Of a DNA stretch of 64,000 nucleotides, positions 1-12,130 are shown one piece after another (the first letter of the stretch is position 1; every line of letters begins with the position of its first letter). The notes below the pieces were generated by a model. It searched no databases. It was not told the origin of the DNA and worked only from the letters and a program-made list of their open reading frames with translations. The position numbers were made by a program, and so were the translations under genes. Origin of the DNA: Escherichia coli (lineage in GTDB: Bacteria; Pseudomonadota; Gammaproteobacteria; Enterobacterales; Enterobacteriaceae); the NCBI RefSeq assembly GCF_003334815.1, contig NZ_QOWO01000021.1, one strand, 5' to 3'.

Positions 1-2
1 GC

Positions 3-140
3 TATGAATATCTGCTGGAGAAGTACAGCTCGCTGGAATCCATTCATACTGAGATTGGCACCAACGAACTTGGCGAGCTGGAAGAGCAAAAAATCTTTAC
101 CGGCGATCTGCTGACACCGTGGCGTAACAGGCGATATTGA
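3..140 (+). CDS. 3' end of an uncharacterized upstream gene (C-terminal 45 codons, truncated by window edge)
   Basis: Open frame from window start to a TGA at 138-140 (translation ...YEYLLEKYSSLESIHTEIGTNELGELEEQKIFTGDLLTPWRNRRY); co-directional with and 67 nt upstream of the helicase gene; frame choice not certain. Confidence 0.35.
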   Translation, partial: YEYLLEKYSSLESIHTEIGTNELGELEEQKIFTGDLLTPWRNRRY

Positions 141-207
141 TAGCGACGCCCTCTTCTCTAAGTTAAGTCAGCAGGCTTTTTCAGGACATCTTAAGAGGTA
201 AGTACAT

Positions 208-3200
208 ATGGACTTATTTGACCTGTTAACAATTAAATTTACCTTGCCCGCGAAAGCTGCCCCTGTAAGAAAAGTGGGTGGGAATTATGTTCATAAATTA
301 CTTTGCCGATCAACAACAGTATTGGCTCAAGTCAGAAATGCACGTTTCCAAGGATATTTTGAACTTGTTACGGGTCTAAAGCCCCCTCTGGACTATGTCT
401 ATCTGAAAGATCCAAATTCCAGGGGTAAATGCGCAGATGGTGTAGCTTCCCTTAAAGCTAAGGAACCATTTACATTCGAAAAATGGCGAGAAGATACTGA
501 GTTAAGCTGGGAGCAATTTCCAGAGCAGGTAATTAGCACTTCACCTAATGAAATTAATGAACAATGGCATCATCAATTTCAGTTTAGAGAGGACGATCCA
601 GAGCGCAATTCTCCCGGTCTCAGAAAACCCCAACTGGGTGCACTTCATGCAATTGCAGGCTATTTCGCCACTGATTTGCAGGTAGAACCTGCTACCGTCG
701 TACTGCCCACTGGAACGGGAAAAACGGAAACAATGCTGGCTACCATGATATACCAGCGATGCGAGCGAATTTTGCTCATAGTCCCATCTGACTCTCTCCG
801 AACACAGATATCCAAAAAGTTCATCGATTTAGGATATTTGCCAGAGCTAACAGTCGTTCCACCCAACATTGCACTTCCTAATGTCGCCATTATTAAGAAA
901 GGAATTCAGGTAGCGGAAGAAGCTAAGCAATTAGCTTGTGAATCAAACGTCTTGGTTGCTACGACCAGCGTTTTGTCTGCCTGCTCCGAAACAGCATTAA
1001 ATGCACTTTGCGAGTTGTGTAGCCATCTTTTTGTTGATGAGGCTCATCATATCTCAGCCTCATCATGGCAGACAATTCGCAAACGATTTAAAAACAAACG
1101 TGTAGTGCAGTTTACAGCTACCCCTTTTAGGAATGATAAAAAGTCCCTTGGTGGGAAAATTATCTATAACTACACGATGGGGGAAGCCCAACGAGCAGGC
1201 TATTTTACAAATGTAAATTTGCTGCCTGTAGAAGAGTATTACTCTGACCTTATGGATCACGCAATCGCAGATAAAGCTGTTGGCCAACTGCGTATAGACT
1301 TAAATAATGGCCTTGATCATTTGCTTATGGCCCGTACTAGCAATAAGCAGCGAGCAGAAGAAATACTGACTATTTATCAGAATATTGTACCGAACTTTAA
1401 TCCAATCGTTATTCATTCTGATTATCCTAAAACGGAAATAAAAAAACGTCTTAATAAATTATTATCAAGACAATCAAGAATCGTTATTTGCGTAGACATG
1501 TTGGGAGAAGGCTATGACCTACCCAACCTGAAAATTGCCGCTTTGCATGATCACCATAAGTCTCTTGCAGTAACTTTGCAGTTTATTGGCCGTTTTACTC
1601 GTGTCAATAAAGCACAGAAAATTGGTCAAGCTAGTGTAGTCATGAATGTTGCAGACCCTAATGTTGAAGGTGAATTACAGCATCTATATTCAACAGATGC
1701 CGATTGGGATAACGTATTAAGGCGACTCTCTGAAGGACGAATTGCTAGAGAGATTAGGTTGCAAGAGGTCGTGGATGCCTTAAAAAGGAAAGGTGATTTA
1801 CACGATCAGATCTCTCTCTGGAACCTTGAGCCAAGTTGTTCTGTCATGTTATTTAAAACATACTGTGACAATTGGGAGCCTGAAAGATACAAGGAAAAAC
1901 TGCCTAGATTCGATGAATCATGGCATGCAATAGCAGAAGATGAGAATTTGCTTGTTGTGCTAGCTGTCCAGACAACTTCAGTCCGGTGGGGAAACTACAA
2001 AGATCTTAAAGATACCAATTATAAAATTCTAATTGCTCATTGGGATCAAAGCAGATCCGCCTTGTTTGTATTCTCAAATGACTATAAAGCATTCCGGGTT
2101 GAGAATCTGGTTAGTACTATTTGTGATGATAAATTTGAAATTGTCAGTGGTGAAAAAGTTTTTAATGTATTTAATGGTATTGAATATCCTTTAGCAAGAA
2201 ATTTAGGCGCATCCCAAATTGGAGCAATAAGCTTTACTCAATATTTTGGCCCAAATGTCACTGAGGGGCTATCACTAATTGAAGCGTCTCAATCAAGCTT
2301 AAGCAATATTGCTGCATTAGGTTATGAATCCGGAAACCGTGTAATCTGGGGATGCTCGCAACGCAGAGGTAAGGTCTGGTCACCACAAAAAGGGGGTAGC
2401 ATTGCTGATTGGTGCAACTGGGTTAAGAAAACTTGGGACAAAATCTTTAGTTCTGAACCAGATCCAAACAACCTTACGCGTAACTTTTTGCGTCCTGTCC
2501 CATTACTCGAACCCTATAATGAATATCCAATATCAGCTCAATGGGGTGAGTATTTGCTTACTACGTTCGAAGATAAAGTTATTTTTCATTTTGATGCTAT
2601 ATCAGCTCACTTATATTTAGTAGATGTGAAGACTGCTGGAAAGTTTGACGATGGCAATGTGCGGCTCATTTTTTCTACAGATGAAACTTCATCTGAATAT
2701 AAATTATGTCTTACAGGTAGTACTACAGCAAAAGGTTATGCCTATCAGTTGATTTCTGGCCCTGAAGTCTTTGTACAGCGAGGTGAATCTGAACCTGTAT
2801 CACTATCAGAATATATGGAAATTGATCCAGTAATGATTCATTACTCCGATGGCTCATTTTCTTACAACGCTCATATAGTTCATGTAAGCCCAAATATTGG
2901 CCTTTATGACAAAGACGAAATTGTAGCTTTTGATTGGAATGGAACTGATGTTCGACTGGAATCAATGGGCTATACTCGTGATCCATCATCCATCCAGTGG
3001 CGTTGGTACAGTGAAATTAAAGATAATTACGATGTTATTATTAATGACGACGGTAAAGGTGAGTCAGCTGATTTAGTTGGGTTAAGAATAGTTGATGACT
3101 GTATTGTTCTCTCTTTAATTCATTGCAAGTATTCAGGCTCAGAAGAAGCTGGAGCAAGACTTAAAGATCTTTACGAAGTATGTGGGCAGGCACAGAGATG

Positions 3201-10349: not shown

Positions 10350-10667
10350 TCATATATGGCAAACTGTAATACAGTTGCTTGTACTGAAAAGTATTCTGTA
10401 TAAAACAGAATCCATATTCATATCAGCACAAGGGACCACCAAATCCCGGCAGTATTCATTACGTCAGTTATCCCGCATCACTCTGTGAGTGAGTTTTTTT
10501 ATGAGGTTACTTTTTCATTGAATATAAATAATGAATAACCGCAGATTCTGATAATCCTCCTCCAGGGAACAATCAGGTAAACAGTAAATACATCAGTTAA
10601 TACCATTTTGTCTTTTTAACAAAGAAAATATTCATGGAGTAAGTTCCCGGGCATTTGCCCGGGATGA

Positions 10668-11933
10668 TTACTGTTTTAATGGATTATTAATCTTTGCATA
10701 TTCAAATGGACTGATAAATCTTTCTCTGTTTGCATCCAGAAAATCGGCCCACCATTGTAGCATCAAGCGGCGTTCTTCCAGATGTTCTGCTTTATGAATG
10801 TAAGCAGCACGTACACCGTTACGTTCCTGATGGCTCATCTGACGTTCAACAGCATCGCGGGACCACAAACCTGATTCTATTAACGCACTACATGCCATCG
10901 CCCGGAACCCATGACCACAGACATCCCGGGTTGTGTCATACCCCATAACCCTCAGGGCTTTATTTACGGTGTTTTCACTGATTGGTTTACGTGGGTCATG
11001 TGCTCCCGTAAAGATCAGACCATTTTCACCAGCCCATGTCTGAAGTTCTGCCAGTATGGCTACAGCCTGTTTGCTGAGTGGCACAAGATGTGGTGTTCGC
11101 ATCTTGGATCCCCGGTGTGAGAATTTTACGCCTGGCAGAGGTTCGCGCTCAGCTGGAATAGTCCACATGGCATTGTCAATATCAATTTCCGACCAGCGGG
11201 CGTATCTGAGTTCACTGGAACGAATAAAAACCAGTAAATTCAGCATAACTGCCAGTTGGGTGACAGGCTGGCCTTTATAACCGTCAATACGCGACAGAAG
11301 TTCAGGCAGGCGTGAAAGATCCAGAGCAGGGCGGTGCTGGCGTTTTACCGTGGTCAATGCACCAGCCATATCCAGAGCCGGGTTATATCTGATGATGCCA
11401 GACTGTACGGCATAACGCATTACAGCAGATATTCTTTGCTGCAGACGACTGGCGATTTCATAAATTTGTTTAGCTTCTGCAGCACGAACAGGGATAAGCA
11501 GGTCCGGGGTACTGAGTGTTGTGATATCCCGGTTGCCGATAAAGGGGAAAACGTGTGTCTCGAGGCTTTTGAGTACTTTATCGCTGTGTGATTGTGCCCA
11601 TTGTTTATTACTGACATGCCAGCGTCGTGCAATATGTTCAAAAGAGAGTTGTAAATCAGGGACTACTTTTTTAGCTCTTTTCTGTTCGCAAGGGTCAATC
11701 CCCTCCGAAATCAGTTTTCGGGCTTCATCCCGTTTTGTACGAGCTTCGGAGAGAGATACTTCCGGATACACACCAAGTGCCAGAGTCTTCTCCTTACCCA
11801 GAATACGATAACGGAGACGCCAGTAACGGGAACCATTGGGATGTACCAGCAGGAACATGCCAGCCCCGTCAGTGAGTTTATAAGCCTTGTCAGTGGGCTT
11901 TGCAGCCCGGATTTTTGCGTCAGTCAGTGCCAT
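10668..11933 (-). CDS. int: Tyrosine site-specific integrase, P4/CP4-57 type (421 aa)
   Basis: Full-length ORF; N-terminus MALTDAKIRAAKP...YWRLRYR typical of tRNA-associated P4-like integrases; C-terminal catalytic region HxxR...Y; lies ~200 nt from tRNA-Phe 3' end. Confidence 0.9.
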   Translation of the reverse strand: MALTDAKIRAAKPTDKAYKLTDGAGMFLLVHPNGSRYWRLRYRILGKEKTLALGVYPEVSLSEARTKRDEARKLISEGIDPCEQKRAKKVVPDLQLSFEHIARRWHVSNKQWAQSHSDKVLKSLETHVFPFIGNRDITTLSTPDLLIPVRAAEAKQIYEIASRLQQRISAVMRYAVQSGIIRYNPALDMAGALTTVKRQHRPALDLSRLPELLSRIDGYKGQPVTQLAVMLNLLVFIRSSELRYARWSEIDIDNAMWTIPAEREPLPGVKFSHRGSKMRTPHLVPLSKQAVAILAELQTWAGENGLIFTGAHDPRKPISENTVNKALRVMGYDTTRDVCGHGFRAMACSALIESGLWSRDAVERQMSHQERNGVRAAYIHKAEHLEERRLMLQWWADFLDANRERFISPFEYAKINNPLKQ

Positions 11934-12130
11934 AGTTCAGCCTTCTGAATGAGTTAAAGAGGGTACAAATTCTGTCGAACTGGGGTATACCCGCAATTAT
12001 ACCCACACAATGGGGTTGATGTGGGGGGAATCTGGTTGAGTTCGGTAGAATTGATTTGGAGGAAGAACACTTAAATCATGGTGTTCTGAAACGAAAAACG
12101 GACCTCCGTGGAGGTCCGTTGATATGAATT

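What the first reader, a model, noticed from the sequence alone, without database searches (positions are those of the whole stretch)
1..12130. Compositional discontinuity between island and core
By eye the island genes, especially 208-5000 and 7900-10650, are markedly AT-richer with A/T-ending codons (e.g. aaa tta ctt tgc cga tca aca aca gta ttg), while the sequence from yqgA onward has the usual balanced E. coli composition. I did not compute exact GC values.
Basis: seen in the sequence. Interest (0 to 1): 0.35.

Follow-up and report, generated by a model that had tools for sequence, protein, structure and literature searches.

The report
AT-rich mosaic island at pheV tRNA
The first 12.1 kb of the window really is much AT-richer than the rest because it is the tRNA-proximal end of a known kind of horizontally acquired element, the E. 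coli pheV genomic island, built from three stacked cargo blocks of different composition; this is a textbook signature, not a new phenomenon.

Summary
Confirmed and ordinary. GC is 0.433 for 1-12130 and 0.514 for the rest. No 12,130-bp core window falls below 0.4975. Third-codon-position GC (GC3), codon adaptation, dinucleotide and tetranucleotide signatures all separate the island from 47 core genes.

The boundary at 12130/12131 is exact. It is the 3' end of tRNA-Phe (pheV). K-12 has the empty site, and a 22/23-nt repeat of the tRNA end closes the ~27-kb island in the 99.9%-identical strain 52F4. This is GI-pheV (PMC11537424).

The island is not uniform. It has three blocks, each ending on its tRNA side in an integrase gene or a stump of one:
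- 1-5400: GC 0.39. Present in 15-16 of 5,426 genomes.
- 5401-7571: GC ~0.48. Not distinguishable from core by signature.
- 7572-12130: GC 0.46. Common.

The two AT-richest gene families keep 34-46% GC in hosts and element backbones of 42-64% GC. The low GC therefore belongs to the mobile gene pool and is not a fading donor trace.

Side lead: the 1093-aa helicase is unnamed and widespread. In 7 of 8 neighbourhoods it follows hsdS of a type I restriction-modification operon. Here that operon is wrecked and the helicase is intact.

The parts
1..128 (+). Remnant of a type I restriction-modification hsdM gene (C-terminus missing). It is the right-hand edge of the dead hsdR/hsdM remnants that continue left of the window.
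   Evidence: Annotation of the 99.9%-identical genome. Window -1429..128 matches hsdR/hsdM of the leuX island L004 at 96.9%. About 2.0 kb (hsdM 3' part plus hsdS) is missing, with a short shared TGGCGT at the junction.
208..3489 (+). 1093-aa SF2 helicase of an unnamed, widespread family. It is one of the two most AT-rich genes (GC 0.401, GC3 0.323).
   Evidence: Pfam finds only ResIII/DEAD/Helicase_C at residues 138-470. PADLOC and NCBIfam give only weak helicase-core hits. More than 7000 homologs exist, with full-length orthologs at 50-85% identity across phyla. Composition.
3585..4907 (+). 440-aa predicted membrane protein with six invariant cysteines (annotated start 3642). No known family. 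GC 0.38, GC3 0.33.
   Evidence: No Pfam, PADLOC, NCBIfam or PHROG hit. 71 clusters, the named ones almost all Enterobacterales, all 'hypothetical'. Invariant residues. The AF2 model is poor, pLDDT 56.6.
5280..5371 (-). Heavily decayed stump of an integrase 3' end, marking the junction between block C (helicase) and block B.
   Evidence: 59 of 92 nt identical to the 3' end of the leuX-island integrase (L004 17124-17214). Local score 24 against a maximum of 15 in 2000 shuffles. Differences lean G/C to A/T, 22 against 6. Not detectable at protein level. The GC change point is at 5460.
5408..6391 (+). '5'-nucleotidase' gene, a full-length match to the PADLOC candidate defence family PDC-S08 (annotated start 5426).
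   Evidence: PADLOC PDLC04900, E 1.7e-134, covering profile positions 12-318 of 323. GC 0.472, GC3 0.438.
6469..7344 (-). Phosphorothioate-DNA-sensing HNH restriction endonuclease, disrupted by a premature stop at codon 254 of 292.
   Evidence: NCBIfam NF045808, 381.9 bits against a cutoff of 180. Internal stop confirmed. Core-like GC3 of 0.51.
7553..7762 (-). Integrase remnant (C-terminal 70 residues only), marking the junction between block B and block A. It is a cargo-swap point.
   Evidence: tblastn: 74% identity to the leuX-island integrase and 63% to the window's own integrase. Strain S42 shares everything to the right of about 7572 but has different cargo to the left.
7949..8698 (+). 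Outer-membrane protein of the OmpW/Adr-like beta-barrel type.
   Evidence: NCBIfam Adr subfamily at 102 bits (below cutoff) and OmpW weak. Annotation.
8850..10349 (+). CptA-like phosphoethanolamine transferase. It is not an MCR or EptA colistin-resistance enzyme.
   Evidence: Best NCBIfam hit is CptA at 110 bits against a cutoff of 404. All MCR models score 21-31 bits against cutoffs of 1075-1250. A decayed homolog lies beside the integrase at leuX in a K-12 derivative.
10668..11933 (-). Intact tyrosine integrase next to the tRNA. GI-pheV papers call this gene intP4.
   Evidence: NCBIfam integrase domain at 248 bits, PHROG integrase at 215 bits. Position beside pheV. GC 0.48 but GC3 0.415.
12097..12120 (-). 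Island-borne hairpin plus T-run directly after the tRNA 3' end. It stands where the native pheV terminator stood before insertion.
   Evidence: Terminator-like site: 10 pairs, 6 of them G-C. The native terminator hairpin now lies beside the distal repeat about 27 kb away.
12131..12153 (-). Attachment-site core: the last 23 nt of pheV, repeated at the far end of the island.
   Evidence: A 22/23 direct repeat lies at L001 2941-2962. It is identical to the attR TTCGATTCCGAGTCCGG-CACCA listed for GI-pheV in PMC11537424.
12131..12206 (-). tRNA-Phe (GAA) gene pheV, the integration target and true island/core boundary.
   Evidence: ARAGORN. Rfam tRNA at 68.3 bits. K-12 annotation of the same gene.

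Best explanation
The compositional step marks the junction between native E. coli chromosome and a horizontally acquired genomic island integrated at the 3' end of the tRNA-Phe gene pheV (GI-pheV). The window holds its tRNA-proximal 12.1 kb; the whole island is about 27 kb in the near-identical strain 52F4.

Shown:
- A tyrosine integrase sits beside the tRNA.
- The island is bracketed by the tRNA's last 23 nt and a 22/23 copy of them.
- The K-12 empty site is rebuilt exactly when the island is removed.

Inferred: the island grew by accretion. New elements integrated at pheV and pushed older ones outward, and later deletions removed the older integrases' 5' parts and the internal att copies. 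That left three cargo blocks, each ending on its tRNA side in an integrase or an integrase stump:
- Block A: integrase, phosphoethanolamine transferase and outer-membrane protein.
- Block B: PDC-S08 gene and a dead phosphorothioate-sensing nuclease.
- Block C: helicase, membrane protein and dead type I restriction-modification genes.

The blocks differ in composition because they come from different parts of the mobile gene pool. The strongest AT-richness (block C) is a stable property of those gene families wherever they occur. It is not a decaying imprint of one recent low-GC donor.

Inferred from the literature, not tested: such AT-rich DNA is a preferred target of H-NS silencing in E. coli.
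For: - Composition. GC is 0.433 against 0.514, GC3 0.443 against 0.564, and signature distances lie outside all core controls.
- Insertion site and junctions: tRNA-Phe at 12131-12206, K-12 empty site, exact three-way junction alignment, distal 22/23 repeat, matching the published GI-pheV attR.
- Integrase.
- Patchy distribution: the whole segment is in 8 of 5,426 genomes, block C in 15-16, block B in 49 (255 partial), block A in 1,107 (3,127 partial).
- Mosaic structure: the blocks are mutually dissimilar in signature (z-correlation 0.21-0.23). Integrase stumps lie at 7553-7762 and about 5280-5371. Block C occurs at another tRNA (leuX) at 96% identity. Strain S42 has the same block A with different cargo. 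In strain C5 this island abuts an att repeat and then another island.
- Persistent AT-richness: the 440-aa gene is 34-41% GC in loci whose remaining sequence is 47-52% GC and whose element-backbone windows reach 55-64% GC. The helicase is 40-46% GC in loci from E. coli, Advenella, Geomonas and Vibrio.
Against: - No internal att copies survive between the blocks, so the order and mechanism of accretion are inferred from the stumps and from strain C5, not seen directly.
- The 5280-5371 stump is weak: 64% nt identity and no protein-level signal.
- Block B is compositionally core-like, so composition alone would not have flagged it.
- The distal repeat and the far half of the island lie outside the window. 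They are known only from a 99.9%-identical genome.
- The H-NS involvement is untested. Promoter-like sites in 1-5400 are not enriched over the compositional expectation (11 found, 14.9 +/- 4.7 expected).
Confidence: 0.9

Rival explanations
1. Amelioration gradient: all three blocks came from AT-rich donors, and their different GC simply reflects time spent in E. coli, with older blocks having drifted further towards 51% GC.
For: The commonest block (A, in 20-58% of genomes) is less AT-rich (0.46) than the rarest (C, 0.3% of genomes, 0.39).
Against: The block C gene families keep 34-46% GC even at 47-67% protein identity and inside loci of 42-52% GC, with backbone windows up to 64%. That is not expected if composition relaxes to the host. 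Block B is the most host-like yet is far rarer than block A. The decayed integrase stump has drifted towards A/T, not G/C (22 against 6).
Confidence: 0.12
2. The region is a prophage or a P4-like phage satellite, and its composition is that of a phage genome.
For: The integrase matches PHROG integrase families and NCBIfam PRK09692; GI-pheV papers class this integrase as P4-type. The GI-pheV paper suggests an ancestral phage origin. By my own knowledge, P4-like satellites are known defence hotspots.
Against: No capsid, tail, packaging, lysis or P4 core genes are found in the window or annotated anywhere in the 27-kb island of 52F4. The cargo is defence, membrane and toxin-antitoxin genes.
Confidence: 0.03
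3. The genes are native, and their AT-richness comes from low expression, membrane-protein amino-acid bias or local mutation bias.
For: Some undoubted core genes are nearly as AT-rich (cmtB GC3 0.372, srsR 0.445, yggM 0.479).
Against: GC2 does not differ from core, whereas GC3 and the signature do. The segment is absent from K-12 and from more than 99% of genomes. It is bracketed by att repeats and carries an integrase.
Confidence: 0.01
4. The step is an assembly chimera or contamination joining unrelated DNA.
For: None specific. In strain C5 the island sits on a 214-kb record labelled as a plasmid, which shows that assemblies of this region can be odd.
Against: The same junctions occur in at least 8 independent complete genomes from different hosts and countries. 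The junction is the biologically expected tRNA 3' end.
Confidence: 0.01

Closest known systems
[quoted passage not shown] 2024, PMC11537424)
   Same: - Same integration site and an integrase beside pheV.
- Same imperfect 23-bp attR (TTCGATTCCGAGTCCGG-CACCA).
- Modular mosaic organisation. The distal half in strain 52F4 carries the flu (Ag43-type autotransporter) and yee (CbtA/YeeU, RadC, antirestriction) modules described there.
   Different: - The tRNA-proximal cargo here is defence-type and envelope genes, not the virulence modules (iuc/sat, pap, nan, LEE-associated) on which that paper concentrates.
- The paper text I searched does not mention GC content, phosphoethanolamine or restriction.
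- The intP4 allele class was not determined.
leuX-associated islands: KpLE2 in K-12, and the leuX island of strain Eco_24-2013
   Same: - Same architecture: tRNA, then a related integrase (67% identity), then cargo.
- The Eco_24-2013 island carries block C at 96% nt identity, with its type I restriction-modification operon intact.
- A K-12 derivative has a decayed homolog (90.6% nt) of the phosphoethanolamine transferase beside its leuX integrase.
   Different: Different tRNA target and different integrase. In the window the type I restriction-modification genes are remnants.
Bacterial defence islands and xenogeneically silenced AT-rich islands
   Same: - A cluster of defence-type genes: type I restriction-modification remnants, a PADLOC candidate (PDC-S08), a phosphorothioate-sensing nuclease, and SymE and CdiI nearby.
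- They sit next to an integrase, with GC well below the host.
   Different: Several of these genes are dead (hsdR, hsdM, hsdS, the PT-dependent nuclease). No H-NS binding data were available.
Single-protein helicase-nuclease defences (Hna, HmaA, DdmD)
   Same: The 1093-aa helicase has an SF2 motor followed by a conserved C-terminal domain. That domain's invariant residues (D947, D948, E952, D955, H972-x-K974) and predicted strand-strand-strand-helix layout resemble a PD-(D/E)xK nuclease. It always sits among defence genes.
   Different: - Hna is 845 aa with a DinG/XPD-like motor.
- HmaA has Snf2-rel and NOV_C domains.
- This protein's motor is closest to RadD, XPB and FANCM.
- No NOV_C domain, no PADLOC Hma hit and no PDB sequence relative for the C-terminus.
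- Nuclease activity and defence function are untested.

Membership tests
GI-pheV (E. coli pheV genomic island) | Inserted at the 3' end of the pheV tRNA-Phe gene beside yqgA | tested here: met
   tRNA-Phe lies at 12131-12206 next to yqgA. Homology to the K-12 empty site ends exactly at the tRNA's CCA end.
GI-pheV (E. coli pheV genomic island) | P4-type tyrosine integrase gene (intP4) immediately adjacent to pheV | tested here: met
   A 421-aa integrase lies at 10668-11933, 197 bp from the tRNA. NCBIfam PRK09692 integrase domain at 248 bits, PHROG integrase. The allele class intP4.1-4.5 was not determined.
GI-pheV (E. coli pheV genomic island) | Flanking 19-23-bp direct repeats derived from the pheV 3' end | tested here: met
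   A 22/23 repeat lies at L001 2941-2962 in the 99.9%-identical genome, outside the window. It is identical to the published attR.
Genomic island (classical criteria) | Base composition and codon usage differ from the core genome | tested here: met
   Not met by the sub-block 5401-7571 taken alone.
Genomic island (classical criteria) | Present in some strains and absent from close relatives | tested here: met
   Absent from K-12. 80% or more of 1-13500 is present in 8 of 5,426 genomes.
Prophage or P4-like satellite | Phage structural, packaging or lysis genes, or the P4 core genes | tested here: not met
   PHROG scan of all seven window proteins finds only integrase and generic helicase families. 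None is annotated in the full island of 52F4.
Functional type I restriction-modification system | Intact hsdR, hsdM and hsdS | tested here: not met
   hsdR lacks its N-terminus, hsdM lacks its C-terminus, and hsdS is deleted, relative to the intact operon in L004.
MCR/EptA lipid A phosphoethanolamine transferases (colistin resistance) | Score above the curated NCBIfam cutoffs | tested here: not met
   MCR models score 21-31 bits against cutoffs of 1075-1250. EptA models score 42-61 bits against 561-660. The best hit is CptA at 110 bits against 404.
Phosphorothioated-DNA-binding restriction endonuclease (NF045808) | Score above cutoff and an intact reading frame | tested here: inconclusive
   381.9 bits against a cutoff of 180, so the sequence is a family member. 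A stop at codon 254 of 292 removes the C-terminus. Function is doubtful.
PADLOC candidate defence family PDC-S08 | Full-length match to the PDC-S08 profile | tested here: met
   E 1.7e-134, 445.8 bits, profile positions 12-318 of 323. The family itself is only a computational candidate.
HmaA (Hma defence helicase-nuclease) | Snf2-rel helicase domain plus C-terminal NOV_C/DUF3883 nuclease | tested here: not met
   Pfam shows ResIII/DEAD/Helicase_C only and no NOV_C. No PADLOC Hma hit.
Hna (single-protein helicase-nuclease defence) | DinG/XPD-like SF2 motor with a C-terminal PD-(D/E)xK nuclease, about 845 aa | tested here: inconclusive
   Different length (1093 aa). Motor closest to RadD, XPB and FANCM. 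No sequence hit to any PDB chain beyond generic helicases. It is not certain that the Hna structures were in the PDB copies searched. A C-terminal PD-(D/E)xK-like motif is suggested only by invariant residues.

The most novel reading that the evidence does not exclude
The AT-richest gene of the island, the 1093-aa helicase, would be an undescribed defence component. It would be a motor protein with a C-terminal PD-(D/E)xK-like nuclease that forms the conserved last gene of a particular type I restriction-modification operon (sigma-54-type activator, hsdR, sometimes RmuC, hsdM, hsdS, helicase) in Gamma- and Deltaproteobacteria. It would also be able to persist and act alone, as here, after the restriction-modification genes have decayed.
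Probability: 0.3. Interest if true: 0.55.

Novelty: new member of a known kind. Interest (0 to 1): 0.2.

Why it matters
For the finding as given, the value is confirmation. A by-eye call of AT-richness is quantitatively right, and it maps to the base onto a well-known integration hotspot.

Three points go slightly beyond the textbook:
- The compositional sub-steps inside the island coincide with integrase stumps, so composition can be used to read the accretion history of a tRNA island.
- The AT-richness of the most deviant genes is a stable family property across hosts of very different GC. This argues against reading GC deviation as a clock of residence time.
- A GC-only scan would misplace the boundary by 1.4 kb and would miss the core-like middle block. 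That is a caution for island-prediction tools.

The helicase/type I restriction-modification synteny is a cheap, testable lead for phage-defence work.

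Tried and rejected
- Internal att copies between the blocks: none found. 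With 3 or fewer mismatches to the 23-mer, or exact words of 11 nt or more, the only hits were the tRNA itself, the distal repeat and one 11-nt word judged to be chance.
- Protein-level detection of the 5280-5371 integrase stump: none. It rests on nucleotide similarity only.
- Structure of the 440-aa protein: the AF2 model was too poor (pLDDT 56.6) to search with.
- A profile of the C-terminal 194 residues against PDB sequences: no hit at E up to 10.
- Enrichment of sigma-70 promoter-like sites in the AT-rich block, as a proxy for the need for silencing: not seen (11 against 14.9 expected; core control 7 against 4.0).
- Rfam on 1-13500: only the tRNA.
- Prophage or satellite reading: rejected.
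- MCR-type colistin resistance for the phosphoethanolamine transferase: rejected.
- The 440-aa protein as an obligate partner of the helicase: rejected. Its homologs sit beside an HNH protein, beside a metallophosphatase/GHKL-ATPase pair, or alone next to a CBASS-like operon. The helicase's downstream neighbours vary.
- The second half of the C5 'plasmid A' record was inspected for a second integrase plus tRNA-Phe. None was found within 35 kb.

Full report
OBSERVATION. The claim is right.

GC is 0.4327 for 1-12130 and 0.5143 for 12207-64000. None of the 397 overlapping 12,130-bp windows of the remaining sequence falls below 0.4975 (mean 0.5137, SD 0.0068).

I mapped gene coordinates from a 99.9%-identical annotated genome, E. 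coli 52F4. It is colinear with the window apart from 18 substitutions and one 1-bp indel. With those coordinates the 8 island genes have mean GC3 (third-codon-position GC) of 0.443, against 0.564 +/- 0.053 for 47 core genes (one-sided Mann-Whitney p = 2e-4). A codon-adaptation index referenced to the window's own core genes (leave-one-out) is 0.593 against 0.708 (p = 1e-5). GC2 does not differ (p = 0.6). The shift is therefore mainly synonymous and not an amino-acid effect.

The tetranucleotide z-score correlation of 1-12130 to the core is 0.623, and the lowest of 33 equal-length core controls is 0.730. The dinucleotide distance is 99, and the highest control is 42. The quoted codon string is at 295-324, in frame with the first long gene.

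QUALIFICATIONS. The island is not uniform.
- 1-5400 has GC 0.393. The helicase has GC3 0.323 and the 440-aa gene 0.332.
- 5401-7571 has GC about 0.48 and cannot be told from core by any signature measure (44-53% of controls are as extreme).
- 7572-12130 has GC 0.458 and a deviant signature.
- The three blocks are as unlike each other (z-correlation 0.21-0.23) as they are unlike the core.
- A GC-only change-point search puts the steps at 5460 and 10730 rather than 12130. The integrase has near-core total GC (0.48) although its GC3 (0.415) is atypical.
- The core has its own AT-rich spots: 42907-43906 at GC 0.398 (tkt-cmtB spacer plus cmtB), yggM and srsR.

WHAT IT IS. The only tRNA in the window is tRNA-Phe at 12131-12206 on the minus strand, next to yqgA. 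This is pheV.

In K-12, pheV is followed directly by yghD/gspM. A three-way alignment shows that the K-12 sequence equals the window's tRNA side up to the terminal CCA (window 12131), joined to the sequence just beyond a repeat at L001 2941-2962 in strain 52F4. That second stretch includes the native pheV terminator hairpin. The repeat, TGGTGCC-GGACTCGGAATCGAA, is 22 of 23 nt of the pheV 3' end. Its reverse complement is the attR TTCGATTCCGAGTCCGG-CACCA tabulated for GI-pheV in ED1a, H10407, 12009, 55989 and others (PMC11537424).

A 421-aa tyrosine integrase lies 197 bp from the tRNA. In 52F4 the island is about 27.2 kb with GC 0.453. Its distal half, outside the window, carries an Ag43-type autotransporter, CbtA/YeeU, RadC, an antirestriction gene, CdiA-CT/CdiI, IS200 and SymE, plus hsdR and hsdM remnants. 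These include the flu and yee modules of the published GI-pheV. So 12130/12131 is the exact structural boundary, and the window holds only the proximal 12.1 kb.

No phage structural genes or P4 core genes are present.

ANATOMY OF THE WINDOW PART.

Block A (7572-12130) contains:
- the integrase;
- a CptA-like phosphoethanolamine transferase that falls far below every MCR/EptA cutoff;
- an OmpW/Adr-like outer-membrane protein.

At 80% coverage or more it is found in 1,107 of 5,426 complete E. coli genomes, and in part in 3,127. A K-12 derivative keeps a decayed copy of the transferase beside its leuX integrase.

Block A ends at 7553-7762 in the C-terminal 70 residues of a second integrase, 74% identical to a leuX-island integrase. 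Strain S42 shares everything to the right of about 7572 but has different cargo to the left (TerB-N protein, ATPase, helicase). The stump is therefore a cargo-swap junction.

Block B (5401-7552) contains:
- a full-length match to the PADLOC candidate PDC-S08, annotated as a 5'-nucleotidase (E 1.7e-134);
- a phosphorothioate-DNA-sensing HNH nuclease (NF045808, 382 bits) cut by a stop at codon 254 of 292.

It is found in 49 genomes, or 255 in part.

Block C (1-5400) contains:
- an hsdM remnant (1-128);
- a 1093-aa SF2 helicase;
- a 440-aa membrane-type protein with no family;
- at about 5280-5371, a decayed integrase 3' end.

The decayed integrase end has 59 of 92 nt identical to the leuX-island integrase, score 24 against a shuffle maximum of 15. 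Its differences lean G/C to A/T, 22 against 6. It gives no protein-level signal.

Block C is in 15-16 of 5,426 genomes. In strain Eco_24-2013 it lies at 96% identity in a leuX island, directly after an intact hsdR-hsdM-hsdS operon and before an intact integrase. Relative to that copy, the window lineage has lost about 2.0 kb (hsdM 3' part plus hsdS) at a short shared TGGCGT.

MECHANISM.

Shown: site-specific insertion at the pheV 3' end, with the expected integrase, att repeats and empty site.

Inferred: stepwise accretion. A newcomer integrates at the regenerated tRNA site and pushes older elements outward. Deletions then remove the older integrases' 5' parts and the internal att copies, none of which survive.

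Strain C5 shows the intermediate state. There the same island, with its integrase intact, abuts an imperfect att copy (TGGTGCCCGGACTCGGAATGAAA) followed by another yee-type island.

The insertion also displaced the native pheV terminator by about 27 kb. An island-borne hairpin plus T-run at 12097-12120 now occupies the corresponding position. That it works as a terminator is an inference.

WHY AT-RICH. The 440-aa family is 34-41% GC in every locus examined. That includes homologs of 47-67% identity inside elements whose backbones are 55-64% GC. The helicase family is 40-46% GC in E. coli, Advenella, Geomonas and Vibrio loci.

In the intact leuX copy, hsdR and hsdM are E. coli-like (GC3 0.58-0.59), while hsdS, the helicase and the 440-aa gene are AT-rich. 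The step can therefore occur inside one gene string.

This favours a stable property of mobile-pool genes over a fading donor signature. It also speaks against reading the GC differences between blocks as an amelioration clock. Block B is the most host-like yet is much rarer than block A.

H-NS silencing of such DNA is well documented in general (for example PMC8894471) but was not testable here. A simple promoter-motif count showed no excess over the compositional expectation.

SIDE LEAD. The helicase is an unnamed, length-conserved family.
- There are more than 7000 hits at E < 1e-20.
- Full-length orthologs at 50-85% identity occur in Serratia, Pectobacterium, Advenella, Ketobacter, Marinobacter, Vibrio, Geomonas and Rikenellaceae.

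Pfam sees only the SF2 core at residues 138-470.

In 7 of 8 neighbourhoods it lies on the same strand after hsdS of a type I operon whose hsdR carries an EcoEI_R_C domain. The gap is 6-14 bp in five of them (E. coli leuX, Ketobacter, Methylomicrobium, Marinobacter, Pectobacterium). One or two genes intervene in Geomonas and Vibrio. Five of the eight have a sigma-54-type activator upstream, and three have RmuC between hsdR and hsdM. Advenella is the exception: there the helicase is cargo of a Tn7-like element.

Invariant C-terminal residues (D947, D948, E952, D955, H972-x-K974) sit on a predicted strand-strand-strand-helix unit and suggest a PD-(D/E)xK nuclease. Fold searches returned only helicase cores, and the C-terminal profile has no PDB sequence relative. 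The architecture recalls Hna and HmaA, but their defining domains are absent. The 440-aa protein is not an obligate partner.

VERDICT. A correct observation of a textbook signature at a well-studied hotspot. This particular cargo combination is rare, but the kind of element is known.

Noticed in passing
window 208-3489; loci L004, L013, L014, L017-L020: The 1093-aa helicase is the conserved gene immediately after hsdS in a recurring operon (sigma-54-type activator, hsdR, sometimes RmuC, hsdM, hsdS, helicase) in 7 of 8 neighbourhoods from Gamma- and Deltaproteobacteria. It has a conserved C-terminal PD-(D/E)xK-like motif. It belongs to no named defence family in PADLOC v2, Pfam or NCBIfam.
   Followed up: partly
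window 3585-4907; loci L005, L008-L011: The 440-aa predicted membrane protein with six invariant cysteines is an unnamed family whose named members are almost all Enterobacterales. It is always AT-rich (34-41% GC) and always sits in mobile or defence contexts, but beside different enzymes: this helicase, an HNH protein, a metallophosphatase plus GHKL ATPase, or a CBASS-like operon.
   Followed up: partly
window 12097-12120 (minus strand); L001 ~2905-2930: The island brings its own hairpin plus T-run to the spot directly after the pheV 3' end. The native pheV terminator hairpin is now stranded beside the distal att repeat, about 27 kb away.
   Followed up: partly
window 1-12130 versus 12207-63926: Against the closest genome (52F4) the island carries 10 differences in 12.1 kb and the core 9 in 51.7 kb, a 4.7-fold excess (Fisher p = 0.001). 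This is consistent with the faster turnover or recombination of GI-pheV modules reported in PMC11537424.
   Followed up: partly
L015 21604-21626 and L016 (E. coli C5, NZ_CP010123.1): In strain C5 the same island lies on a 214-kb circular record labelled 'plasmid A' that is packed with island-type genes and IS elements. Its integrase end abuts an imperfect att copy and then a second yee-type island. No second integrase plus tRNA-Phe was found within the next 35 kb. Whether this is a genuine plasmid or an assembly or labelling problem is unresolved.
   Followed up: partly
window 120-128: A deletion of about 2.0 kb removed the hsdM 3' part and all of hsdS, relative to the intact leuX-island copy. 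The junction shares a short TGGCGT. hsdR is also truncated upstream of the window, so the type I system is dead while the helicase downstream is intact.
   Followed up: yes
window 42907-43906; also 23007-24014 and 55400-56296: There are AT-rich patches inside the core: the tkt-cmtB spacer plus cmtB (GC 0.398 over 1 kb, cmtB GC3 0.372), yggM (GC 0.445) and srsR (GC 0.446). The first is as AT-rich as the island but lies in genes that have K-12 names.
   Followed up: no
window 54493-55233 and 36041-36051: yggE is intact in the window, but the 52F4 annotation marks it as a pseudogene with an internal stop. One of the 18 substitutions (55126) falls in it. The only indel between the two genomes is a T9/T8 run at about 36042-36051, in the metK-speA interval.
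   Followed up: partly
L007 2926-8750 (E. coli S42): At the same cargo-swap junction, strain S42 carries a different three-gene set (TerB N-terminal domain protein, ATP-binding protein, DEAD/DEAH helicase). This suggests that the site distal to the integrase stump is a hotspot for alternative defence-like cassettes.
   Followed up: no
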